From an uncultured Actinomycetota bacterium (GTDB lineage: Bacteria; Actinomycetota; Actinomycetes; Mycobacteriales; Nakamurellaceae): 64,000 nucleotides of DNA. Below are positions 7,249 through 55,135 of this stretch, piece after piece (positions within the stretch are counted from its first letter, which is position 1; every line of letters begins with the position of its first letter). The position numbers and the translations under genes were made by a program. The notes under the pieces are model-generated. The model searched no databases. It was not told where the DNA came from and saw only the letters and a program-made list of their open reading frames with translations. The stretch is from positions 295,320-359,319 of the forward strand of contig CAVOIW010000004.1 in NCBI GenBank assembly GCA_963695865.1. Direction: 5' to 3'.

Positions 7249-7619
7249 TCGGCCGCCGTTCACCGGCCTGCGCCGCGCTTGACCGGCTCGGCTGGACGAC
7301 GCGAAAAAAATCGTTGCGAACGGGCCGATCCGCGGTTACCTTCGAAATCGAACCCGGAAGGAGGTGGTCCCACGTTGAAGACGTACAGGACTTGTGAGGT
7401 GGCTGGCCGCTAGGCCGCCGTTCCATCACGTCGGACCGTGGTCCGTTCCCTACCGGGAACAGCGGTCAGGCAAGTAGTGGACAGTCACCCGACCCCCGGG
7501 CTGCCGACCATCGTCCAGTCGGCCCTCTGTCGCGACTCCAGCGTCAGGCGGAGGAACCGCCCGGGGGTTGTCCTGTCCCTGCTAGCTTTCTGCCCGTGAC
7601 GACCGCCGTTTTCCGTAGC

Positions 7620-44830: not shown

Positions 44831-45586
44831 CTAGACACCTTTGACGAACAGGTAGACAGCGATCGCCACGCCGAGGGTCACCACGCTCCAACGGAGTGCG
44901 GTCTCGTTCACATGGCGGGCGATGCGAGCGCCCACGTATCCGCCGATCAGCGTGGCCGGTGCGGCTATCAGTACCGCCGTCCAGTTGACGGGGCCGAAGA
45001 AGCCGAAGATGAGCACGCTGATGGAGCAGTCGACGAACGACACGACGCCCTTCAGGGCGTTCAGCCTGCGAAGCGTGTCAGGGACGGTCAGGGCGAGCAC
45101 GCCGAGAATGATGACGCCGAGCGCGGCTCCGAAGTAGCCGCCGTAGACCGTCGCTGCGATCATCGCCGGGAATTGGACCGTCCAGATACGGCCACCCTCG
45201 CGAGGCTCACCGACCCGCTTCTTGATGGTGGGTTGGAAGGCCAGCATGCCGGCGGCGACGAGGACGAGAAGGGGGACGATCACGTCGAAGGCACCCGGCG
45301 GCGTGACGAGGAGCAGGACGCATCCGGTGGTCGTGCCGATGAGGGTGGCCAGTAGCAGGGGCCGCATCCTCGCCCGTTGTCCGACCAGTTCCGGGCGGAA
45401 CCCCAGCACGCCACCGGCGTACCCGGGCCAGGTCGCCACCGAGTTGGTTACGTTCGCGGCCAGGGGTGACATACCGGTGGCCAGCAGCGCCGGGAACAGG
45501 ATCAGCGACCCGCCGCCGGCGATCGAATTGATCGCTCCACACAGCAGCCCGGCGATCGCGATCAGCGCGACAGAGGAGGGACTCAC
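44831..45586 (-). CDS. TauE/SafE family sulfite/anion exporter (DUF81)
   Basis: Intact 251-aa ORF with 7-8 transmembrane segments, Gly-rich GGGS and PALL motifs. Confidence 0.8.
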   Translation of the reverse strand: MSPSSVALIAIAGLLCGAINSIAGGGSLILFPALLATGMSPLAANVTNSVATWPGYAGGVLGFRPELVGQRARMRPLLLATLIGTTTGCVLLLVTPPGAFDVIVPLLVLVAAGMLAFQPTIKKRVGEPREGGRIWTVQFPAMIAATVYGGYFGAALGVIILGVLALTVPDTLRRLNALKGVVSFVDCSISVLIFGFFGPVNWTAVLIAAPATLIGGYVGARIARHVNETALRWSVVTLGVAIAVYLFVKGV

Positions 45587-45646
45587 CGCGCCACCCTACG
45601 CAGCCGCCACTCGATGACGCGGGCCTGGGCGGTACACCTTCTACTG

Positions 45647-45660
45647 CGAACAAATGTTCG
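45647..45660. promoter_or_regulatory. LexA / Cheo-type SOS box CGAACAAATGTTCG overlapping the start codon of the 45654 gene
   Basis: Read directly: gcGAACaaATGTTCGa. It has the GAAC-N4-GTTC dyad and differs from the Gram-positive consensus CGAACATATGTTCG at one spacer base. It extends to the actinobacterial TCGAAC-N4-GTTCGA at 11 of 12 positions. The ATG of the ORF lies inside the box. Confidence 0.6.
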
Positions 45661-45983
45661 ATAACATTGATGTCGTGGAGAGCCCATCGCTGAACAGGTA
45701 CGTGAACGAGATCAACCCCAAGGTGGTCCCGACCAGGCCACAGGGGCGCGTCCCGGCTATCGCCAGGTTGGTTCTGGACGCGGCGGGCAGCTACGAGATG
45801 TGGCCATGCACTGCCCTGCGCTGGACGGAAGAAGCGGTCATGGTCACCATCCAGTTCACGCCGGGGGAGTCGCAGAGCGCACGCCCGCTGTGGCTGGCGG
45901 TCGACGACGTGGCGAGGGTGCTCCGGCAGGCGATACCTTCCGCACCCCAGCCGCCGAACGAAGCCGGGCGGTCGACCGACTGA
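45654..45983 (+). CDS. Hypothetical 109-aa protein, putatively LexA-regulated (SOS)
   Basis: ORF 45654..45983: MFDNIDVVESPSLNRYVNEINPKVVPTRPQGRVPAIARLVLDAAGSYEMWPCTALRWTEEAVMVTIQFTPGESQSARPLWLAVDDVARVLRQAIPSAPQPPNEAGRSTD. Third-position GC is high, consistent with coding. No family recognised. The start codon is embedded in a near-consensus SOS box. Confidence 0.55.
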   Translation: MFDNIDVVESPSLNRYVNEINPKVVPTRPQGRVPAIARLVLDAAGSYEMWPCTALRWTEEAVMVTIQFTPGESQSARPLWLAVDDVARVLRQAIPSAPQPPNEAGRSTD

Positions 45984-45998
45984 TACCAACCCGGCACC

Positions 45999-46448
45999 TC
46001 AGCGGGCCCTGCCCGCCCGAAGCGTCTCCATTGCCTTGTCCAACCGTCGCTGCCGCGTCTCCGGGGTCTTCGCGCCCTCGATCGCCAGTACGTGCGCCGA
46101 CTGATTGCTGTAAGACAGGGTCTCGAAGAATTTCCTGACCACCGGTTCGGCGGCCAGCCGTTCGGCGAAGTCGGCTGGCACCGTGACTTCGCGTGGTGCG
46201 TCATCGATCTCGACGCGGACGTCGACCTCGTCACCCGCCGTCAGTCCGGTGATCTTCCTGATCTCCGCGCTGACCGGGATGAGAAAGCGCTCACCGCGCG
46301 GCGCGATGGTGCTCCGGTAGGTATGGCCGTTGATCGTCACCGACACCGCCGGCTTCTTGCCCCGGCCCAATGCCGTGACCACCTCGGGTGGCACCAGGAG
46401 GCCGGTGGCCGTCTTGCCTTCCAACTGCAACGTGGTTCGGAAGTTCAT
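45999..46448 (-). CDS. DUF1905 plus YdeI/OmpD-associated domain protein
   Basis: Intact 149-aa ORF. MNFRTTLQLEGKTATGLLVPPEVVTALGRGKKPAVSVTINGHTYRSTIAPRGERFLIPVSAEIRKITGLTAGDEVDVRVEIDDAPREV (DUF1905), then ...ADFAERLAAEPVVRKFFETLSYSNQSAHVLAIEGAKTPETRQRRLDKAMETLRAGRAR (YdeI-like). It starts 15 bp after the LigD-Pol stop on the same strand. Confidence 0.8.
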   Translation of the reverse strand: MNFRTTLQLEGKTATGLLVPPEVVTALGRGKKPAVSVTINGHTYRSTIAPRGERFLIPVSAEIRKITGLTAGDEVDVRVEIDDAPREVTVPADFAERLAAEPVVRKFFETLSYSNQSAHVLAIEGAKTPETRQRRLDKAMETLRAGRAR

Positions 46449-46463
46449 GCCGGGAGTATGCCG

Positions 46464-47432
46464 CTACTCGGGTACATCTTCCGCACCGGCCAATTCGTCT
46501 CGTTCCGCCCACTCGATGAGTGGGTCGATGGAGAACACCGCTTCGTCGATCCCGGCATGCAGATCGCCGAGTTCGGCGAACCTCGCCGGAACGGTGCCCA
46601 TCGTGCACTCCTGGGGCTGCACCTCGTCGACCTCCGACCACGAGATCGGCGTGGACACCGTCCCTCTCGGTACTCCCCGCACCGAGTACGCGCTGGCAAT
46701 CGTGTGGTCCCGGGCGTTCTGGTTGTAGTCGACGAACAACTTGCGCGGGTCCCGGTCCTTTCGCCACCAGGTGGTGGTCACGTCGTCCGGAATGCGCCGC
46801 TCGACCTCACGGGCGAAGGCCAGGGCCCCGCGGCGGACGTCCTTGAATCCCCACTGCGGGTCGATCCGGACGTAGACGTGCATGCCGTGACCGCCAGAGG
46901 TCTTCGGCCAGCCGACGGCACCGATTTCATCCAGGAGGTCGTGCACGACATGCGCTACCCGGCGCACGGTGTCGAACGGGCAGTCCGGGCCGGGATCCAG
47001 GTCGATCCGCCATTCGTCAGGGCGCTCGGTGTCTGCCCGCCTGGAGTTCCAGGGATGGAATTCGACGCAGGACATCTGGACCGACCAGATCACGTCCGCA
47101 AGCCGGGTCACGCACAATTCGTCTGCGTTGCGGCCGGACGGAAAGTCCACGCGGACCGTTTCGATCCACTCCGGTGCGCCCCGGGGAATTCTTTTCTGGT
47201 GCACCTTTTCGCCGGCGAGCCCGTCCGGGAAACGATGCATCATGCACGGACGTTCGCGCAGCGCACGGACGATGCCGTCCCCGACGGACAGGTAGTAATT
47301 CGCGAGATCCAGCTTGGTGAAGCCGCTTTCGGGAAAGTACACGCGATCGGGATTGGAGATCCGCACGTCGACGTCGCCCACCTTCAGTTCCACTGCCGGT
47401 GAAGTGCCGCGGGCCGCCATGCCGTCCAACAT
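46464..47432 (-). CDS. Standalone LigD polymerase / primase-polymerase domain protein (NHEJ polymerase, archaeo-eukaryotic primase fold)
   Basis: ORF 46464..47537. Probable start is the ATG at 47430-47432 (MLDGMAARG...). ...DVDVRISNPDRVYFPESGFTKLDLANYYLSVGDGIVRALRERPCMMHRFPDG...WIETVRVDFPSGRNADELCVTRLADVIWSVQMSCVEFHPWNSRRAD...GGHGMHVYVRI...KLFVDYNQNARDHTIASAYSVRG matches LigD-Pol (PolDom) motifs. It starts 10 bp after the dinB stop. Confidence 0.85.
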   Translation of the reverse strand: MLDGMAARGTSPAVELKVGDVDVRISNPDRVYFPESGFTKLDLANYYLSVGDGIVRALRERPCMMHRFPDGLAGEKVHQKRIPRGAPEWIETVRVDFPSGRNADELCVTRLADVIWSVQMSCVEFHPWNSRRADTERPDEWRIDLDPGPDCPFDTVRRVAHVVHDLLDEIGAVGWPKTSGGHGMHVYVRIDPQWGFKDVRRGALAFAREVERRIPDDVTTTWWRKDRDPRKLFVDYNQNARDHTIASAYSVRGVPRGTVSTPISWSEVDEVQPQECTMGTVPARFAELGDLHAGIDEAVFSIDPLIEWAERDELAGAEDVPE

Positions 47433-47442
47433 ATCTGGCCGC

Positions 47443-48642
47443 TCAGTCCGGCAGCATCGGCATGGCCCAGCCGGAGTCTCGGCCCAGCAGGACGCCGCGA
47501 GTGAGCGCCGCGCTGCCAAATCTGTGCCGCACGTCATCCAAGGCAGAATCCAGCGCTGTGGCGCTGAACTCGCGGAACGGCAACTCCAATTGAACGGCGT
47601 CGTCTTCGTGCCGGAAGCCTGCCACTGATATTCCTACCAACGTCAGGCCGCGTTCGGAGACCAGCGGTTCGGCGGCCGCCATCAGTTCGCGAATCGCGAG
47701 CAGGATCTCCGGGGTCTGTGAGGTGGCGCGAGGGAGTGTGTGCGATCGGGTGGCCCTGGAGAAATCGTCGAATCGAAGGCGCAGCATCACCGTGCGCCCC
47801 CGCCGGTCGGCATCCCGCATTCGCCTGGTCACCCGATCCACCAGGCCGAGCAGGACGGCATCGAGGTCGGCTGTGCTGCGCCGGGTTCGCCCGAGAGCGC
47901 GCTGCGCACCGATGGATGATCTGCGCCTTCCGACCTGAACCCGCCGCGGGTCCTGATTGTGCGCCAGCGCGTGCAGGTGCCGGCCCGACCCTTTACCCAG
48001 CATGGCGACCAAGGTCGATTCGCCCAACTCCGCGACCTGACCGACCGTGCCGATGCCGTGGGCGTGCAGTTTGCCGGCCGTGACCTTGCCGACCCCCCAC
48101 AGTCTCTCGACCGCGAGCGGGTGCAGGAATTCGAACTCCGCGTCGGGCGGAACCTCGAGCAGGCCATCGGGTTTGGCCACTCCGCTGGCTACTTTGGCGA
48201 GGAATTTGGTGCGCGCGACGCCAACGGTGATGTTGAGTCCCACTTCGTCGCGTACCCGCCGACGCAGCCGGACCGCGATGTCGACCGGCGAACCCGCAAC
48301 GCGGCGCAGGCCGCCGACATCCAAAAAGGCCTCGTCGATCGAGATGCCCTCGACCAAGGGCGTCGTCTGCTCGAACACTTCGAAGACAGCTCGGCTCGCC
48401 GCGGTATAGGCCGAGAACCTCGGCTCGACCACGACGGCATCGGGGCAGGCCTGACGAGCTTGGAATCCGCTCATCGCCGACCGCACTCCGAACGCCTTGG
48501 CCTCATAACTGGCCGCCAGCACGACACCGCCGCCGACGATCACCGGCCGCCCGCGCAACGCCGGGTTGTCCCGCTGCTCGACCGAGGCGAAGAAGGCATC
48601 GAGGTCGGCATGCAGGATCGTTGCGTGGGCGGACACGAACAT
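47443..48642 (-). CDS. dinB: DNA polymerase IV (Y-family translesion polymerase)
   Basis: Intact 399-aa ORF. MFVSAHATILHADLDAFFASVEQRDNPALRGRPVIVGG...ISIDEAFLDV... are the Y-family palm motifs (DxDAFFASVE, SIDEAFLD). The ATG is embedded in an SOS box. Confidence 0.9.
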   Translation of the reverse strand: MFVSAHATILHADLDAFFASVEQRDNPALRGRPVIVGGGVVLAASYEAKAFGVRSAMSGFQARQACPDAVVVEPRFSAYTAASRAVFEVFEQTTPLVEGISIDEAFLDVGGLRRVAGSPVDIAVRLRRRVRDEVGLNITVGVARTKFLAKVASGVAKPDGLLEVPPDAEFEFLHPLAVERLWGVGKVTAGKLHAHGIGTVGQVAELGESTLVAMLGKGSGRHLHALAHNQDPRRVQVGRRRSSIGAQRALGRTRRSTADLDAVLLGLVDRVTRRMRDADRRGRTVMLRLRFDDFSRATRSHTLPRATSQTPEILLAIRELMAAAEPLVSERGLTLVGISVAGFRHEDDAVQLELPFREFSATALDSALDDVRHRFGSAALTRGVLLGRDSGWAMPMLPD

Positions 48643-48649
48643 ATGTTCG
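48636..48649. promoter_or_regulatory. LexA / Cheo-type SOS box CGAACATATGTTCG (perfect palindrome) overlapping the dinB start codon
   Basis: Read directly at 48636-48649. It is identical to the Gram-positive Cheo-box consensus and matches the actinobacterial TCGAAC-N4-GTTCGA core GAAC-N4-GTTC. The dinB ATG (complement of 48640-48642) sits in the spacer. The plus-strand ORF 48655..48909 starts 6 bp to the right. Confidence 0.65.
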
Positions 48650-48921
48650 CATGAATGAGGCGTGATGGGAATGATCCAGACGCATCCTGCGCCGCACTCG
48701 TGCGTCCTTCGGGCATGAGTTCGACACAGACCACAGCCCAGAGATCACTCCACCACGCCGCCGTCAGATTCGTCCCCGCAACGGCGAACGAGCGTCGATC
48801 CCACCTGCGCGCCGTGCCCAACCATCTCGCCGTGGCGCCACTGGTGCAGCCACAGGCACCGGAGTGCGACGACAATTGCCATTACTGCCAGGGCCCCGAA
48901 ACCGACTGACTGGCGCGAGGC

Positions 48922-49860
48922 TCAACGGGCGATGGGCAGCGGTCTGCTGCTGATCCCGATCAAGGTGTCCTCCAGCAGGTTCGGCGGTTTCACGGCCGCG
49001 ATACAGGCGAGGTACCCCTGGAACAGCCCGGCCGCCGTCAGCGGCACCATCGAAGTGCCGTCCAGTACGTAGGCCGAGATCACCAGCCGGCCAGCACGCG
49101 TGGGGTCCGCCGTGCGCAACGACCGGGTTGCCATGCCCAGACACGACCTGTTGACCTGGGTGACCGTCGTGCCAGCTGCGGTGACCTCGGTCACCGCCAG
49201 AATCTCGAAGCGGTGCGGTGTGGAACACCCCACCTGCTGATCCGCCATCTGCTGCTCGCTCGTGGACTGCAGCGACCGCCAGCAGGTGGCAAACTCCGGC
49301 GGCAGCACACCGGTGGTCAGTGCATCGCTGAGCCGGCCACGGTACGGCCTCCGGTCGGGTGTCACGCCGACACAGGCTGTCCACGTCCGGCCGGCCCGGA
49401 TCTGCAGGGCGCTGGGCCCGACTGACACCGATTGCACGGTCACGGCCGCCTGCCAGGCTATCCCTGGGGTCGTGATCGTCGCGGGATCGAACGGGCCGAT
49501 CGAGCCGACGTAGTTCACCTCCGACAGCTCACACGTCGAGCTGTCGAACTCGTAGGACGCGACGGTGGTACGGCGCAAGTCGTGCTGAGCGAGATCGACC
49601 GACATCACCTCGCCGATGACCGGCCCGGCGCAACTCCCGTATTCCATCGTCGGATAGGTCACCTGCGCATTCACATCGCTGCTCTGATCCGTCGGCGGCA
49701 GGGGCGAAATCGCCCGCACGCAGTCGCCGACCGACGGCGGGTCCGCAATTACAGCCGCGACCGGTGATCCCTTCACCTGATGACCAACCGCGCTGGGAAC
49801 GACGAGGGCCGCGAGTGCCACCGCGGTCAACACCAGCACTCCGAACAGTCGCCGATCCAC
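48922..49860 (-). CDS. Secreted or membrane-anchored hypothetical protein (septum-formation-family-like, Cys-containing)
   Basis: Intact 312-aa ORF. N-terminal hydrophobic segment MDRRLFGVLVLTAVALAALVVPSAVG, with GDCV and several conserved Cys. Family call is tentative. Confidence 0.55.
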   Translation of the reverse strand: MDRRLFGVLVLTAVALAALVVPSAVGHQVKGSPVAAVIADPPSVGDCVRAISPLPPTDQSSDVNAQVTYPTMEYGSCAGPVIGEVMSVDLAQHDLRRTTVASYEFDSSTCELSEVNYVGSIGPFDPATITTPGIAWQAAVTVQSVSVGPSALQIRAGRTWTACVGVTPDRRPYRGRLSDALTTGVLPPEFATCWRSLQSTSEQQMADQQVGCSTPHRFEILAVTEVTAAGTTVTQVNRSCLGMATRSLRTADPTRAGRLVISAYVLDGTSMVPLTAAGLFQGYLACIAAVKPPNLLEDTLIGISSRPLPIAR

Positions 49861-50035
49861 CAGATCATTCCTACACCGCGTCCGGATACGTCGCCCGCCC
49901 GTCGAGCGCGCGGGTGACTACGGCACCGCGTCGACGTGAGGTTCCGCTGCCGACGCGGAAGAATGGGGCCACCATGGTGAGGTGCCGCTGCCGCGATCGA
50001 GCAGGGCACGGTGCAACGACGAGAGGACTGCCGGA

Positions 50036-50311
50036 ATGACGAACGCGGACGACAACTCAGAGCGGACCGATGATCGGACATCGGGCTGGGGTGGCGACAA
50101 GGTGGTACGGGACCACGAGCAGGTAGAGCCCGAAGACGGGCCGGGTTGGAGCGGCGCCAAGGTGGTACGCGACCACGCCGGGGAAGCGGAGGCGGATTCG
50201 GAGGCTGGGTGGAGCGATACCGAGGTGGTGCGCGACCAGGGCGAGAACGCGGACCCGGAGCCCGACGCCGGTTGGAGCGGCACTCAGGTCGCGAAGGACG
50301 AGGGCCTGTAG
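50036..50311 (+). CDS. Small acidic protein made of four tandem ~21-aa GW-x-(K/E)VVRDH repeats
   Basis: ATG 50036 after gagagga. MTNADDNSERTDDRTSGWGGDKVVRDHEQVEPEDGPGWSGAKVVRDHAGEAEADSEAGWSDTEVVRDQGENADPEPDAGWSGTQVAKDEGL. The DNA shows about 63-bp tandem units from 50084 onward. Confidence 0.55.
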   Translation: MTNADDNSERTDDRTSGWGGDKVVRDHEQVEPEDGPGWSGAKVVRDHAGEAEADSEAGWSDTEVVRDQGENADPEPDAGWSGTQVAKDEGL

Positions 50312-50342: not shown

Positions 50343-51140
50343 TCAGGGCGCCTGACAGGTTGGGCACCAGAACAGGTTGCGTCCCACCAGTTCCGCAGTC
50401 GCGATCGGCGTTCTACACACTCGGCAGGGTTGTCCGGTGCGGCGGTAGACGTAGCCTGCTTCCGCCCTGGACAGCGGTCCACGCCGTCGCGGCCGGTGCT
50501 CGTCGCGCACCGTCTCTATCCGGCCGGTGCGAACGCCGGCGCGCATCAGGGTCACCAGGTCAGCCCACATCGCGAGCCACAGGTCTTCCTCGACCAATCG
50601 GCCGGGGCGGAACGGGTCGAGTCGGTGGCGGAACAGGATCTCCGCCCGATACACGTTGCCGATACCCGCCAGCACGGTCTGGTCCATCAGCAGAGCTGCT
50701 ATGACCACCCGGCTGCGGGAGATCTTCCGGTAGGCGAGGCCGGCATCGCTGCCGGCCCTGATCGGATCGGGCCCCAACCGCCGGCGCAGCGCATCCACCG
50801 CCTCCGGATCCATCAGTTCGCAGGCAGTGGGGCCACGAAGGTCACTCCAGGCATCCTCGGTCACCATGCGGAGGCGAAGCGCCCCTTTGGGTTCGGGTGG
50901 CTCGTGCGAGCCGGTGATGAAGGACCCGTAGAGGCCGAGATGCACGTGGAGGGCCGGGGCGTCCTGGTAGTGCTGGAACAGATGCTTGCCGTACGCCTCG
51001 ACCCGCAGCAGGCGTCGACCGTCGAGCACTTCGGCGCCTTGGGCGAAGCGTCCCTGCGGGCTGGACAACGTGATGATCCGGCCGCCGAACACTTTTTGCT
51101 GCGCACGGGCGAGGCGATGCAGGGTATGGCCCTCAGGCAT
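50343..51140 (-). CDS. nei: Fpg/Nei family DNA glycosylase (endonuclease VIII-like)
   Basis: Intact 265-aa ORF. MPEGHTLHRLA has the N-terminal catalytic Pro. The H2TH region is present, and the C-terminal zinc finger is CRVCRTPIATAELVGRNLFWCPTCQ. Confidence 0.9.
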   Translation of the reverse strand: MPEGHTLHRLARAQQKVFGGRIITLSSPQGRFAQGAEVLDGRRLLRVEAYGKHLFQHYQDAPALHVHLGLYGSFITGSHEPPEPKGALRLRMVTEDAWSDLRGPTACELMDPEAVDALRRRLGPDPIRAGSDAGLAYRKISRSRVVIAALLMDQTVLAGIGNVYRAEILFRHRLDPFRPGRLVEEDLWLAMWADLVTLMRAGVRTGRIETVRDEHRPRRRGPLSRAEAGYVYRRTGQPCRVCRTPIATAELVGRNLFWCPTCQAP

Positions 51141-53610: not shown

Positions 53611-53659
53611 CCAGCAGGGGCCGTTTGGGGCCGGGATGGTTGGTGAAATGAGCACAGTC

Positions 53660-55135
53660 ATGGGGCTGCCGTCACGTCGCTGGTTGTTCGGCGATCAACT
53701 CGGTCCTCACTTCCTGGACGACCCGGACCAGCCGGTGCTGATGATCGAATCCCGGGCGGTCTTCGCCCGTCGACGCTTTCATCGCCAGAAGGCCCACCTG
53801 GTTCTGTCCGCCATGCGACACCGGGCTGCCGAACTGGGCGAGCGATGCGAGTACGTCGCGGCGGCGACCTACCGGGAGGCGGTCAGTGGGCCGTTGAGCG
53901 TCTGCCATCCGACCAGCCGCGGCGCGCTGAAGTTCGTCGCGGGACTGACCGACGTCGACGTGCTCCCGGCGCGCGGATTTGCCAGCAGCGCCGCGGAGTT
54001 CGAGCAGTGGGCGTCCGCCCGGGGTGGTCGGCGACTGTTGCTGGAGGACTTCTACCGGGACGCCAGGCGACGCCTCGGCATCCTGATGGACGGCGACGAA
54101 CCAGTCGGGGGCCGGTGGAACTACGACGCCGAGAACCGTGAACCAGCCCCGAAGTCGGGCTCGCTCGCGGTACCGGAACCGTGGTGGCCGACCGAGGACG
54201 ACATCGACGAACAGGTGCGGCACGACTTGGACCGCTGGGAGCGGGATGGCGACGTGTCGTTCATCGGTGTGGACGGCCCGCGCCGGTTCGCCGCGACGCG
54301 AGCCGAGGCACTGGCGGCAATGCGGCACTTCCTCACCGAACGTCTCGACGCCTTCGGCCCTCACGAGGACGCGATGCTGGCCGGCGACTCCTGGCTGGCT
54401 CACTCACTGCTCTCGGCGCCGCTCAATCTCGGGCTGTTGGACCCGGTCGAAGTGGTGACCGCCGCCGAGCAGGTGTACCGCGACGGGCAGGCACGGATCG
54501 CCTCGGTCGAAGGCTTCGTCCGGCAGATCATCGGCTGGCGCGACTATGTCTGGCATCTGTACTGGCAACAGCCCCCGTCGTACCGCGACCGCAATTTTCT
54601 GAGCGCGGACCATCCGGTACCCGGATGGTTCGCCGAGCTGGATGCCGACAGCGTCGAAGCCCGCTGCCTGTCCGGCGTCCTGCGCGACGTCCGCGACCAC
54701 GGCTGGGTCCATCACATTCCCCGACTGATGGTGCTCGGGAACTATGCGATGCAACATGGTTGGCGTCCGGCCGAGGTCACCGACTGGTTCCATCGCGCGT
54801 TCGTCGACGGGTACGACTGGGTGATGGTGCCGAATGTCGTCGGCATGTCGCAATATGCCGACGGTGGCGTGATGGCCACCAAGCCCTACGCGGGCGGCGG
54901 CTCCTACATCGACCGGATGAGCGATTACTGCGGCGACTGCCGCTACCGACCGAAGGTGCGCGTCGGTGAGGAGGCGTGTCCGTACACGGCCGGCTACTGG
55001 GCTTTTCTCGCCCGCAATCGCGGGATTCTGGCCGGCAATCACCGGCTGGCGCAGCCACTTCGCGGCCTCGACCGGTTGGCCGACCTCGAGGATCTGCTGG
55101 CGCAGGAGCGCGCGAGAGGCGAACGGGCACCCTGA
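53660..55135 (+). CDS. Cryptochrome/photolyase-family protein of the iron-sulfur bacterial type (FeS-BCP; PhrB-like (6-4) photolyase or CryB)
   Basis: ORF 53636..55135 is intact at 499 aa; likely start ATG 53660 (MGLPSRRWLFGDQL). FAD-binding photolyase region ...HIPRLMVLGNYAMQHGWRPAEVTDWFHRAFVDGYDWVMVPNVVGMSQYADGG... The C-terminal four-Cys block is RMSDYCGDCRYRPKVRVGEEACPYTAGYWAF. Confidence 0.8.
   Translation: MGLPSRRWLFGDQLGPHFLDDPDQPVLMIESRAVFARRRFHRQKAHLVLSAMRHRAAELGERCEYVAAATYREAVSGPLSVCHPTSRGALKFVAGLTDVDVLPARGFASSAAEFEQWASARGGRRLLLEDFYRDARRRLGILMDGDEPVGGRWNYDAENREPAPKSGSLAVPEPWWPTEDDIDEQVRHDLDRWERDGDVSFIGVDGPRRFAATRAEALAAMRHFLTERLDAFGPHEDAMLAGDSWLAHSLLSAPLNLGLLDPVEVVTAAEQVYRDGQARIASVEGFVRQIIGWRDYVWHLYWQQPPSYRDRNFLSADHPVPGWFAELDADSVEARCLSGVLRDVRDHGWVHHIPRLMVLGNYAMQHGWRPAEVTDWFHRAFVDGYDWVMVPNVVGMSQYADGGVMATKPYAGGGSYIDRMSDYCGDCRYRPKVRVGEEACPYTAGYWAFLARNRGILAGNHRLAQPLRGLDRLADLEDLLAQERARGERAP

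What the first reader, a model, noticed from the sequence alone, without database searches (positions are those of the whole stretch)
48636..48649. Consensus SOS (LexA/Cheo) box centred on the dinB start codon: a LexA-controlled dinB / LigD-Pol / DUF1905 operon
CGAACATATGTTCG at 48636-48649 is a perfect 14-bp palindrome. It is identical to the canonical Gram-positive Cheo box and fits the actinobacterial GAAC-N4-GTTC core. The dinB ATG lies inside the spacer. dinB (47443-48642), a standalone LigD polymerase-domain gene (46464-47432) and a DUF1905/YdeI gene (45999-46448) follow on the same strand with 10-bp and 15-bp gaps, so all three are probably co-transcribed from this LexA-gated start. This couples an error-prone Y-family polymerase with an NHEJ-type primase-polymerase, under damage induction, without an attached ligase domain. 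The DUF1905/YdeI protein is an unexpected third member and may have an undescribed role in damage tolerance.
Basis: partly seen in the sequence, partly recalled or inferred. Interest (0 to 1): 0.65.

Follow-up and report, generated by a model that had tools for sequence, protein, structure and literature searches.

The report
LexA-gated leaderless dinB promoter
The palindrome is a real, strongly conserved binding site for the DNA-damage repressor LexA at the promoter of a translesion DNA polymerase gene; this is a familiar kind of control, and its link to the two downstream genes is weaker than first proposed.

Summary
CGAACATATGTTCG is at 48636-48649 as described. The same dyad sits at the start of the orthologous dinB in 76 of 79 usable loci from three classes of Actinomycetota, while the DNA around it is unconserved, so it is a functional operator that fits the LexA consensus.

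The comparison changes the anatomy. The conserved block is TG-CGAACAT(A/G)TGTTCG-TG. The central ATG is a by-product of the LexA consensus and is ACG, CTG or GCG in ten loci. The near-invariant in-frame GTG at the box edge (48636-48634) is the likely start. GAACAT inside the box, with TG upstream and a TTGC-like -35 17 bp away, looks like the -10. That predicts a leaderless mRNA whose -10 and +1 are covered by LexA.

The three-gene operon is only partly supported. The 10- and 15-nt gaps are real and no terminator is seen. However, the primase-polymerase follows dinB in only 7 genomes, counting the window, and DUF1905 in 5. Both genes have their own conserved -10-like hexamers at leaderless spacing.

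The polymerase is Prim-PolC-like but lacks Loop 3, and no ligase or Ku is nearby. SOS-inducible DinB3 is already reported in M. smegmatis. This is a new member of a known kind.

The parts
48636..48649 (.). LexA operator (SOS box) CGAACATATGTTCG
   Evidence: Exact palindrome. Conserved at the orthologous dinB start in 76 of 79 loci from Actinomycetes, Acidimicrobiia and Thermoleophilia. The arms carry about 2 bits per position, while the flanking DNA carries less than 0.3 bits.
48643..48651 (-). Predicted extended -10 element TG-C-GAACAT, lying inside the operator (hexamer 48648-48643, TG 48651-48650)
   Evidence: TG is conserved at 86-90% and is not mirrored on the other side of the dyad. AACAT gives an ANNNT motif at -11..-7 from the GTG. 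This is a prediction; no transcription start site has been mapped.
48666..48671 (-). Predicted -35 hexamer TTCCCA, 17 bp upstream of GAACAT
   Evidence: Across 77 aligned loci (76 relatives plus the window) this position reads T 66%, T 47%, G 51%, C 56% in DNA that is about 67% G+C. Coordinates checked. Weak in the window itself (4 of 6 matches to TTGACA).
48634..48636 (-). Predicted true start codon GTG and transcription start (+1 = G at 48636), giving a leaderless dinB mRNA
   Evidence: In-frame GTG at box position 14 in 67 of 76 loci. It stays in frame where the box is displaced to -22, -19, -13, -52, -67 or +11. There is a C at -1. NCBI starts two Nakamurella orthologues here.
47443..48642 (-). 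dinB, a Y-family DNA polymerase IV (399 aa from the ATG at 48642; 397 aa from the GTG at 48636)
   Evidence: Pfam IMS, IMS_HHH and IMS_C. NCBIfam NF003015 scores 658.8 bits against a cut-off of 367, matching full length. Best solved relatives are Pol IV structures.
47428..47433 (-). Predicted -10 hexamer TATGTT of a separate leaderless promoter for the primase-polymerase gene
Evidence: TANNNT lies 5-7 nt before the ATG in the window, L001, L002, L003, L079, L081 and L082, and in Aldersonia L085.
46464..47420 (-). Stand-alone primase-polymerase (LigD_Prim-Pol domain), 318 aa from the ATG at 47420
   Evidence: Pfam 1.1e-91. Matches M. smegmatis Prim-PolC structures 6sa0 and 5op0 at E about 1e-101, but the ORF ends about 5 residues into Loop 3. 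Most close relatives are called at 318 aa.
46455..46460 (-). Predicted -10-like hexamer CATACT, 6 nt before the DUF1905 ATG
   Evidence: GGCATACTC(C/G)C-GGC-ATG is conserved in the window, L081, L082 and L002 despite different gap lengths. ANNNT lies at -11..-7 with C at -1.
45999..46448 (-). DUF1905 + OmdA (YdeI-like) protein, 149 aa
   Evidence: Pfam PF08922 and PF13376. No NCBIfam match and no informative solved-structure match. Found downstream of the primase-polymerase in L001, L002, L081 and L082 only.
45647..45660 (.). Second SOS box CGAACAAATGTTCG, upstream of a small + strand gene
   Evidence: Conserved upstream of the orthologous small gene in L001, L081 and L082 with perfect arms, and in L002 with one mismatch.
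45675..45983 (+). Small lineage-restricted protein, about 102 aa from the GTG at 45675. Predicted leaderless, with -10 TAACAT at 45662-45667 abutting the second SOS box
   Evidence: TANNNT, 6-7 nt, then GTG or ATG is conserved in 5 genomes. The centre of the box is CTG in L082, so the ATG at 45654 is not the start. GC3 is 0.85. Only 29 homologues were found, all at least 72% identical.

Best explanation
The palindrome is a LexA operator fused to the core promoter and start codon of a Y-family polymerase gene (dinB, NCBIfam NF003015).

On the - strand the conserved cassette reads: -35 TTGCNN, a 17-bp spacer, TG-C-GAACAT, ATGTTC, then GTG. The -10 hexamer (GAACAT, 48648-48643) is the left half of the LexA dyad. 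Transcription is predicted to start at the G of the GTG (48636), which is the last base of the dyad, giving a leaderless mRNA.

A LexA dimer bound to 48636-48649 would cover -13 to +1 and block RNA polymerase. RecA-stimulated LexA cleavage after DNA damage would free the promoter.

They probably receive SOS-dependent read-through. Each also has its own conserved -10-like hexamer at leaderless spacing, so they are not solely under LexA control.

Shown: the dyad, its conservation, the conserved flanks and the frame relations. Inferred: LexA binding, the transcription start, the GTG start and the read-through.

My sub-estimates: LexA operator that controls dinB, about 0.85. GTG-start leaderless architecture, about 0.6. 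Separate promoter for the primase-polymerase, about 0.6.
For: 1. The exact dyad is in the window. It matches the Gram-positive consensus CGAACRNRYGTTYC and the Firmicutes form TACGAACATATGTTCGTA (PMC2248561). It also matches the Streptomyces ChIP-seq consensus tCGAAC-N4-GNNCGa (PMC9380542).

2. The phylogenetic footprint is strong. The 80 loci were recovered with peptide patterns that do not include the box. 76 of 79 usable loci carry the box (at most 1 arm mismatch) at the dinB start, and 61 have it at the identical offset. Information is about 2 bits per position in the arms and below 0.3 bits farther upstream.

3. The flanks are conserved but not palindromic: TG on the 5' side (86-90%) and TG on the 3' side (94% and 90%). 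A symmetric LexA dimer does not explain this. An extended -10 plus a GTG start codon does. T-T-G-C is enriched 17 bp upstream of GAACAT.

4. An in-frame GTG sits at box position 14 in 67 of 76 loci, and an in-frame start at positions 14-17 in 72 of 76. Of the 15 loci where the box is displaced, 9 have an in-frame GTG at position 14.

5. In the window, ANNNT lies at -11..-7, C at -1 and G at +1 relative to the GTG. None of these holds for the ATG. Only 10% of window coordinates have a correctly placed ANNNT. In M. smegmatis, 79% of promoters have ANNNT at -13..-6, C is frequent at -1 and G or A at +1, 24% of transcripts are leaderless, and DNA-metabolism genes are enriched among them (PMC6448022). 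[quoted passage not shown] M. tuberculosis lexA itself is leaderless (PMC2897130).

6. There is a literature precedent. M. smegmatis dinB3 is induced by UV and ciprofloxacin, and UV induction is reduced in a recA mutant (PMC9346131). It is counted as part of the SOS response (PMC10421592).

7. Internal promoters are predicted. No terminator-like site lies between the genes.
Against: Nothing experimental exists for this organism. The window contains no lexA or recA.

GAACAT is a non-consensus -10 (G instead of T at the first position). The strict sigma-70 scan found no promoter in 45400-49000. The window's -35 matches TTGACA at only 4 of 6 positions.

62 of 76 loci also have a usable in-frame start codon at box position 8, and 3 loci have it only there. 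The ATG therefore cannot be excluded as the start in this genome, for example on read-through transcripts from upstream.

Orthology to M. smegmatis DinB3 was not tested directly. A 61%-identical dinB on a Tsukamurella plasmid has no box, so LexA control is not universal in the family.

The loci are phylogenetically related, so the counts overstate the number of independent observations.
Confidence: 0.7

Rival explanations
1. Translation starts at the ATG in the spacer (48642). dinB, the LigD-type polymerase and DUF1905 form one tricistronic operon whose only promoter is the LexA-gated one.
For: The ATG is in frame and heads the longest ORF. 62 of 76 orthologous loci have a start codon at that position. 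The NCBIfam NF003015 profile aligns from residue 1. The gaps are 10 and 15 nt with no terminator-like site between the genes. The gene order is kept in close relatives.
Against: 10 loci have ACG, CTG or GCG at that triplet, yet keep the box and the GTG. No ANNNT is correctly placed for a transcription start at the ATG, and there is no Shine-Dalgarno sequence upstream.

Conserved TANNNT or CATACT hexamers lie at leaderless spacing before both downstream genes. This includes L081, where a 264-nt spacer with a 22-bp perfect hairpin separates dinB from the polymerase gene.

The polymerase follows dinB in only 4 of the 80 species loci.
Confidence: 0.2
2. The dyad is bound by a regulator other than LexA that recognises a GAAC-N4-GTTC-like palindrome.
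For: No binding data exist for this organism. The outer flanks (G...T) differ from the actinobacterial T...A consensus.
Against: The 14 bp match the LexA consensus at every specified position (PMC2248561, PMC9380542). The regulated gene is a classical SOS gene. A second box in the window shows the LexA-type 3' flank GTTCGA. The promoter and start-codon constraints explain the flank deviations.
Confidence: 0.05
3. The palindrome is a chance sequence, or it acts as an RNA hairpin in the dinB leader.
For: The GAAC-N4-GTTC core alone is not enriched in the window. The palindrome can form a 6-bp stem.
Against: It is conserved in 76 of 79 loci across three classes while the neighbouring DNA is not. 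The RNA fold of 48600-48670 is no more stable than shuffled sequence: z = -0.44, and 68 of 200 shuffles fold at least as well.
Confidence: 0.02

Closest known systems
E. coli dinB and M. smegmatis dinB3 (MSMEG_6443): SOS-inducible Pol IV genes
   Same: A Y-family DinB polymerase gene under a LexA-type operator. E. coli dinB is LexA-repressed (PMC4176160). M. smegmatis dinB3 is induced by UV and ciprofloxacin, and UV induction is reduced in a recA mutant (PMC9346131, PMC10421592, PMC11653572). The sizes are similar: 399 aa here against 403 aa for DinB3. An aromatic residue occupies the steric-gate position (HADLDAFF), as described for DinB1 and DinB3 but not DinB2.
   Different: Direct orthology to DinB3 was not tested here. 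None of the papers I read describes the operator and promoter anatomy of dinB3. M. tuberculosis dinB1 and dinB2 are not damage-induced (PMC4176160). A Tsukamurella homologue at 61% identity lacks the box.
Cheo box / actinobacterial SOS box (LexA operator)
   Same: CGAAC-N4-GTTCG with an ATAT spacer equals the idealised Gram-positive consensus (PMC2248561). It fits tCGAAC-N4-GNNCGa (PMC9380542).
   Different: The outer flanks are G and T, not T and A. Here these positions appear to be taken over by an extended -10 TG and a GTG start codon.
Leaderless SOS genes of mycobacteria, for example M. tuberculosis lexA
   Same: The predicted transcription start coincides with the start codon, there is an ANNNT -10, and there is no Shine-Dalgarno sequence (PMC2897130, PMC4633059, PMC6448022).
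   Different: Here the -10 hexamer itself is predicted to be the left half-site of the operator. No transcription start data exist for this lineage.
Mycobacterial Prim-PolC (PolD1, MSMEG_6301), part of the LigC excision-repair complex
   Same: Stand-alone LigD_Prim-Pol protein matching 6sa0 and 5op0 at E about 1e-101. The DxD and SGGxGxH motifs, most of the 5'-phosphate pocket and the C-terminal helix are present. An Fpg/Nei glycosylase lies 2.9 kb upstream on the same strand. In some mycobacteria, LigC and Prim-PolC are reported to be co-transcribed with FPG (PMC5663958).
   Different: The ORF stops about 5 residues into Loop 3, so it lacks the pin residues said to define the short-gap-filling subfamily (PMC7442782, PMC5663958). 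There is no LigC, LigD ligase or Ku in the 64-kb window. It belongs to a separate, well-conserved group of 318-328 aa proteins found in Nakamurella, Aldersonia, Rhodococcus and Angustibacter. This group may correspond to PolD2, but that was not tested.

Membership tests
LexA operator (SOS box, Gram-positive / actinobacterial type) | Palindromic CGAAC-N4-GTTCG dyad matching the consensus | tested here: met
   The 14-bp dyad matches the consensus at every specified position, with both arms perfect. Consensus taken from PMC2248561 and PMC9380542.
LexA operator (SOS box, Gram-positive / actinobacterial type) | Located at or overlapping the core promoter of the regulated gene | tested here: inconclusive
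   The dyad overlaps the start codon and conserved promoter-like elements: extended -10, a -35 at 17 bp, and C at -1 with G at +1. No transcription start site has been mapped. The strict sigma-70 scan found nothing.
LexA operator (SOS box, Gram-positive / actinobacterial type) | Conserved in front of orthologous genes in other genomes | tested here: met
   Present in 76 of 79 usable loci, 61 at the identical offset, across three classes of Actinomycetota.
LexA operator (SOS box, Gram-positive / actinobacterial type) | Bound by LexA, and the gene is derepressed after DNA damage in a RecA-dependent way | not testable with these tools
   There is only a literature precedent for M. smegmatis dinB3 (PMC9346131, PMC10421592). 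No lexA or recA is in the window.
DinB / DNA polymerase IV (Y family), NCBIfam NF003015 subfamily | IMS catalytic core, HhH and little-finger domains, and a family score above the cut-off | tested here: met
   Pfam PF00817, PF11798 and PF11799. NF003015 scores 658.8 bits against a cut-off of 367, aligned 1-399 of 399. The DLD and SIDEAF motifs are present.
DinB / DNA polymerase IV (Y family), NCBIfam NF003015 subfamily | Orthology to M. smegmatis DinB3 (the msDinB3-like group of PMC6511836) | not tested
The link is inferred only from length (403 against 399 aa) and from the other actinobacterial NCBIfam models scoring below their cut-offs.
Prim-PolC (LigC-associated primase-polymerase) | Stand-alone LigD_Prim-Pol catalytic core | tested here: met
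   PF21686 at 1.1e-91. Matches 6sa0 and 5op0 at E about 1e-101, with conserved catalytic motifs in the alignment.
Prim-PolC (LigC-associated primase-polymerase) | Conserved C-terminal Loop 3 (G313-P333), with the pin residues | tested here: not met
   The alignment ends at chain position 317 and the ORF stops one residue later. The same short C-terminus is seen in all 7 genomes and in homologues of 318-328 aa. Loop 3 is defined in PMC5663958 and PMC7442782.
Prim-PolC (LigC-associated primase-polymerase) | Operonic association with an ATP-dependent ligase (LigC) | tested here: not met
   No DNA_ligase_A domain was found in any scanned ORF of the window, nor next to the gene in L081, L082 and L085.
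LigD / NHEJ module | Polymerase domain fused to or adjacent to a ligase domain, and associated with Ku | tested here: not met
   The protein is stand-alone. No ligase or Ku is in the window. The match to the full-length LigD models is far below their cut-offs.
Single polycistronic operon dinB / primase-polymerase / DUF1905 | Same strand, short gaps, and no terminator between the genes | tested here: met
   The gaps are 10 nt (22 nt from the revised start) and 15 nt. No terminator-like site lies in the gaps.
Single polycistronic operon dinB / primase-polymerase / DUF1905 | No internal promoters, and gene order conserved wherever the genes occur | tested here: not met
   Conserved -10-like hexamers at leaderless spacing lie before both downstream genes. 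The order is found in 4 of 80 species loci plus 2 close relatives. Genes downstream of dinB vary widely. The polymerase orthologue stands elsewhere in Rhodococcus and Aldersonia.
Leaderless transcript (mycobacterial type) | ANNNT at -13..-6, G or A at +1 coinciding with ATG or GTG, and no Shine-Dalgarno sequence | tested here: met
   Met in silico for the dinB GTG at 48636, the polymerase ATG at 47420, the DUF1905 ATG at 46448 and the small-ORF GTG at 45675. The background rate is 10%. The criteria come from PMC6448022 and PMC4633059.

The most novel reading that the evidence does not exclude
In the Nakamurella lineage a Loop-3-less, Prim-PolC-like primase-polymerase and a DUF1905/OmdA protein have been placed directly behind the ancient LexA-gated leaderless dinB cassette. 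After DNA damage, read-through would then co-induce a translesion polymerase, a gap-filling or repriming primase-polymerase and an uncharacterised partner as one damage-tolerance module, on top of their own basal promoters.

The same neighbourhood carries a second SOS-boxed, lineage-specific small gene. The region would then be a small SOS island with two previously undescribed members of the LexA regulon.
Probability: 0.3. Interest if true: 0.5.

Novelty: new member of a known kind. Interest (0 to 1): 0.35.

Why it matters
SOS control of dinB is textbook biology, so the finding itself is ordinary. Three things are useful.

1. It shows that one clade of actinobacterial DinB carries a very well conserved cassette in which operator, promoter and start codon are fused. 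The cassette occurs in Actinomycetes, Acidimicrobiia and Thermoleophilia. This contrasts with M. tuberculosis dinB1 and dinB2, which are not damage-induced.

2. It shows that an ATG in the centre of a Gram-positive SOS box is a built-in consequence of the consensus (N3N4 = AT followed by the G of GTTC). This can mislead start-codon calls. It did so twice in this window.

3. It identifies a widespread short primase-polymerase group that lacks the Loop 3 said to define Prim-PolC. In one lineage this gene sits behind an SOS promoter, which gives a testable lead on its role.

Tried and rejected
- Exact-sequence look-ups of the window's DinB (both starts), its DUF1905 protein, P0001 and P0149 found no record, so the source genome could not be fetched.

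- I could not obtain the M. smegmatis DinB3 sequence or its upstream region. The supplements of PMC6448022, PMC9346131 and PMC5656591 hold no usable entry for MSMEG_6443. Orthology and the operator of the experimentally studied gene therefore remain untested.

- The simple sigma-70 scan found no promoter in 45400-49000. Its two terminator-like hits are within chance and do not lie between the genes.

- The RNA-hairpin idea is rejected: z = -0.44.

- I compared TGTTCGTG with the PafBC / RecA-NDp motif as I remember it. I rejected this by eye because no TANNNT follows and the sequence is coding. This is not a formal test.

- A greedy longest-ORF call of the downstream genes was unreliable in this G+C-rich DNA. 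I replaced it with homology clustering of ORFs with high GC3.

- The + strand ORF 48655-48909, next to the box, was not pursued. It has no Pfam match, fails the GC3/GC2 coding filter, and the corresponding spacer is only about 60 nt in L001.

- The search of the plasmid collection gave only a Tsukamurella homologue without a box and a Mesorhizobium homologue that I did not examine.

Full report
**Observation**

The sequence CGAACATATGTTCG lies at 48636-48649 and is a perfect 14-bp palindrome. It is unique in the window. A one-mismatch copy, CGAACAAATGTTCG, lies at 45647-45660. Within two mismatches, 0.12 sites are expected and no shuffle out of 100 gave two. The 12-bp core GAAC-N4-GTTC is not enriched on its own: 2 found against 1.07 expected. 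The 14-bp form is enriched: 2 found against 0.19 expected, and 2 of 100 shuffles reached two.

The - strand ORF 47443-48642 starts with an ATG inside the spacer.
- a DinB-type Y-family polymerase with IMS, IMS_HHH and IMS_C domains;
- a stand-alone LigD_Prim-Pol protein;
- a DUF1905 + OmdA protein.

The window is 66.5% G+C. Its closest relatives are Nakamurella and unnamed Mycobacteriales genomes at 80-85% DinB identity.

**Is it functional?**

I recovered 80 species-level loci that encode relatives of this DinB (65-83% identity) using peptide patterns that do not include the box. One locus is cut at its 5' end. Of the other 79, 76 carry a CGAAC-N4-GTTCG box (at most one arm mismatch) at the dinB start. 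In 61 of these it sits at exactly the same offset as in the window.

The loci come from Actinomycetes (Nakamurella, Pseudonocardia, Lentzea, Micromonospora, Aldersonia, Jiangellaceae), Acidimicrobiia and Thermoleophilia (Gaiellaceae, Solirubrobacterales). In the alignment anchored on the box, the arms carry about 2 bits per position, while DNA more than 25 bp upstream carries less than 0.3 bits.

This is a clear phylogenetic footprint. The motif equals the Gram-positive LexA consensus CGAACRNRYGTTYC and the Firmicutes form TACGAACATATGTTCGTA (PMC2248561). It also fits the Streptomyces ChIP-seq consensus tCGAAC-N4-GNNCGa (PMC9380542). A chance origin and an RNA-hairpin role are rejected. The RNA fold gives z = -0.44.

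**Anatomy revised by the comparison**

The conserved block is longer than the dyad and is not symmetric: (A/G)TG-CGAACAT(A/G)TGTTCG-TG. A symmetric dimer would predict TG...CA. The observed TG...TG needs other constraints.

1. An ATG or GTG arises there automatically whenever the spacer ends in AT or GT before the G of GTTC.

2. The GTG that overlaps the last G of the box is in frame with dinB in 67 of 76 loci. An in-frame start lies at box positions 14-17 in 72 of 76. Of the 15 loci where the box is displaced, 9 have an in-frame GTG at position 14: those with offsets of -22, -19, -13, -52, -67 or +11. NCBI annotates the N. panacisegetis and Nakamurella sp. UYEF19 proteins from this GTG, as MSEYAS... 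and MSETAS....

3. With the G of this GTG as +1, the bases GAACAT (box positions 2-7) lie at -12..-7. The conserved TG lies at the extended -10 position. A T-T-G-C enrichment (66, 47, 51 and 56% in DNA of about 67% G+C) lies 17 bp upstream. Position -1 is C.

These are the features of mycobacterial promoters. ANNNT lies at -13..-6 in 79% of them, C is frequent at -1, and G or A at +1 (PMC6448022). Leaderless transcripts make up 24% and are enriched among DNA-metabolism genes (PMC6448022). A 5' ATG or GTG is necessary and sufficient for their translation (PMC4633059). M. tuberculosis lexA itself is leaderless (PMC2897130). In the window only 10% of coordinates have a correctly placed ANNNT. The GTG at 48636 has one and the ATG at 48642 does not.

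**Mechanism proposed**

LexA bound to 48636-48649 would cover the -10 hexamer through +1 of a leaderless dinB promoter, and would be released by RecA-stimulated self-cleavage after damage. The window elements are:
- -35 TTCCCA at 48671-48666;
- TG at 48651-48650;
- GAACAT at 48648-48643;
- +1 and the GTG at 48636-48634.

The operator and its conservation are shown. LexA binding, the transcription start and the start codon are inferred. The ATG cannot be excluded as an alternative start, because 62 of 76 loci keep a start codon there and three have only that one.

**The operon claim**

The geometry in the window favours read-through. The genes are on the same strand, the gaps are tiny, and no terminator-like site lies between them. 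Three observations weaken the idea of one LexA-gated start for all three genes.

1. The arrangement is local. The primase-polymerase follows dinB in only 4 of 80 species loci (L001, L002, L003, L079) and in two further 85%-identical relatives (L081, L082). DUF1905 follows in L001, L002, L081 and L082. Elsewhere, no gene family recurs downstream of dinB in more than 13 of 80 loci.

2. A TANNNT hexamer lies 5-7 nt before the polymerase ATG in all seven genomes: TATGTT, TAGGTT four times, TAGATT and TAGGGT. This holds although the gaps range from 10 to 264 nt and the surrounding DNA is unconserved. In L081 the spacer contains a 22-bp perfect hairpin. In Aldersonia the orthologue is not near dinB yet has TAGTTT, 6 nt, then ATG. 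The true start is therefore ATG 47420, giving 318 aa, the length called for most close relatives.

3. CATACT, 6 nt, then ATG is conserved before DUF1905.

The most likely picture is three leaderless units in tandem. Only the first is gated by LexA, and SOS-dependent read-through is added to the basal expression of the other two.

**What the downstream proteins are**

The polymerase is not an NHEJ LigD fragment in any demonstrable sense. Its best solved relatives are M. smegmatis Prim-PolC structures 6sa0 and 5op0 at E about 1e-101. The catalytic motifs, most of the 5'-phosphate pocket and the C-terminal helix are conserved.

Prim-PolC fills 1-3 nt gaps in LigC-dependent excision repair. It is defined by a strictly conserved Loop 3, G313-P333 (PMC5663958, PMC7442782). 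The window protein stops about five residues into that loop, as do all its dinB-linked orthologues and a large group of 318-328 aa proteins in Nakamurella, Aldersonia, Rhodococcus and Angustibacter at 79% identity or more. No ligase or Ku gene is in the window. It works like a Prim-PolC-type repair polymerase, but it fails two defining features of that family.

DUF1905/OmdA has no NCBIfam match and no informative solved-structure match. Apart from adjacency in five genomes, nothing connects it to DNA damage.

**Comparison with what is known**

LexA control of dinB is the founding example in E. coli (PMC4176160). In mycobacteria, M. tuberculosis dinB1 and dinB2 are not damage-induced (PMC4176160). 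M. smegmatis dinB3 is induced by UV, ciprofloxacin and ofloxacin. UV induction is reduced in a recA mutant, and dinB3 is counted in the SOS response (PMC9346131, PMC11653572, PMC10421592).

The window's DinB matches NCBIfam NF003015 at full length (658.8 bits against a cut-off of 367). It is of DinB3-like size. I could not fetch the DinB3 sequence, so orthology is inferred, not tested. A 61%-identical dinB on a Tsukamurella plasmid has no box; its start is preceded by GATACT, 6 nt, then ATG. LexA control is therefore not universal in the family.

**Verdict**

The start codon, the single-operon model, the NHEJ label and the DUF1905 inference need correction or remain unsupported. This is a new member of a known kind. 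A secondary point of interest is the conserved cassette in which the operator supplies the -10 element and abuts the start codon.

Noticed in passing
window 45647-45983 (+): A second SOS box, CGAACAAATGTTCG, lies 67 bp from the divergent TauE gene and just upstream of a small ORF with GC3 of 0.85. The box is conserved in L001, L002, L081 and L082. Its centre is CTG in L082, so the ATG at 45654 is not the start. TANNNT (TAACAT, 45662-45667), 6-7 nt, then GTG or ATG is conserved, which predicts a leaderless start at GTG 45675. The protein has no Pfam or NCBIfam match. Only 29 homologues were found, all at least 72% identical; the only one with a named source is from Nakamurella. It is a candidate lineage-specific SOS gene.
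   Followed up: partly
window 46464-47420 (-): The primase-polymerase belongs to a large, highly conserved group of short (318-328 aa) stand-alone Prim-Pols. They keep the Prim-PolC C-terminal helix but lack Loop 3. The group is found in Nakamurella, Aldersonia, Rhodococcus and Angustibacter, in varied gene contexts. It may correspond to mycobacterial PolD2, but I did not test this.
   Followed up: partly
L081 6200-6465: In an 85%-identical relative, a 264-nt spacer separates dinB from the primase-polymerase gene. It contains a 22-bp perfect inverted repeat (GCTGTCGCGACGTAATACCCAA ... TTGGGTATTACGTCGCGACAGC). This could be an inserted repeat element or a terminator.
   Followed up: no
window 50343-51140 (-) and 53636-55135 (+): An Fpg/Nei-family glycosylase lies 2.9 kb upstream of the primase-polymerase gene on the same strand. 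Its linkage to dinB is kept in L001, L081 and L082. In some mycobacteria, FPG is reported to be co-transcribed with LigC and Prim-PolC (PMC5663958). A photolyase-related DPRP protein lies nearby. Together with dinB these form a loose cluster of DNA-repair genes.
   Followed up: partly
window 47575-47592 (-), DinB residues 351-356: The sequence QLELPF follows the little-finger domain and resembles a beta-clamp-binding motif. About 43 further residues follow it, ending in MPMLPD. The motif is conserved in the Nakamurella orthologues P0029 and P0010. The literature I read says that M. smegmatis DinB3 lacks a clamp-binding motif.
   Followed up: no
window 45584-45598 (-): The TauE/SafE exporter gene (44831-45586) also shows TAGGGT, 6 nt, then GTG, which predicts another leaderless start. 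Leaderless architecture seems common in this region.
   Followed up: no
window 49982-50311 (+): A small acidic ORF of 109 aa (GC3 0.82) contains four copies of a GW(S/G)(G/D)..VV(R/A)(D/K) repeat. It lies between the Nei gene and the 312-aa secreted or membrane protein of unknown function (48922-49860). An ORF of 90-91 aa sits at the same position in L081 and L082.
   Followed up: no
window 7350-7576 (+): Rfam match to the actinobacterial sRNA Ms_IGR-5 (RF02471): 71.6 bits against a gathering score of 45. It lies downstream of a DUF5709 gene.
   Followed up: no
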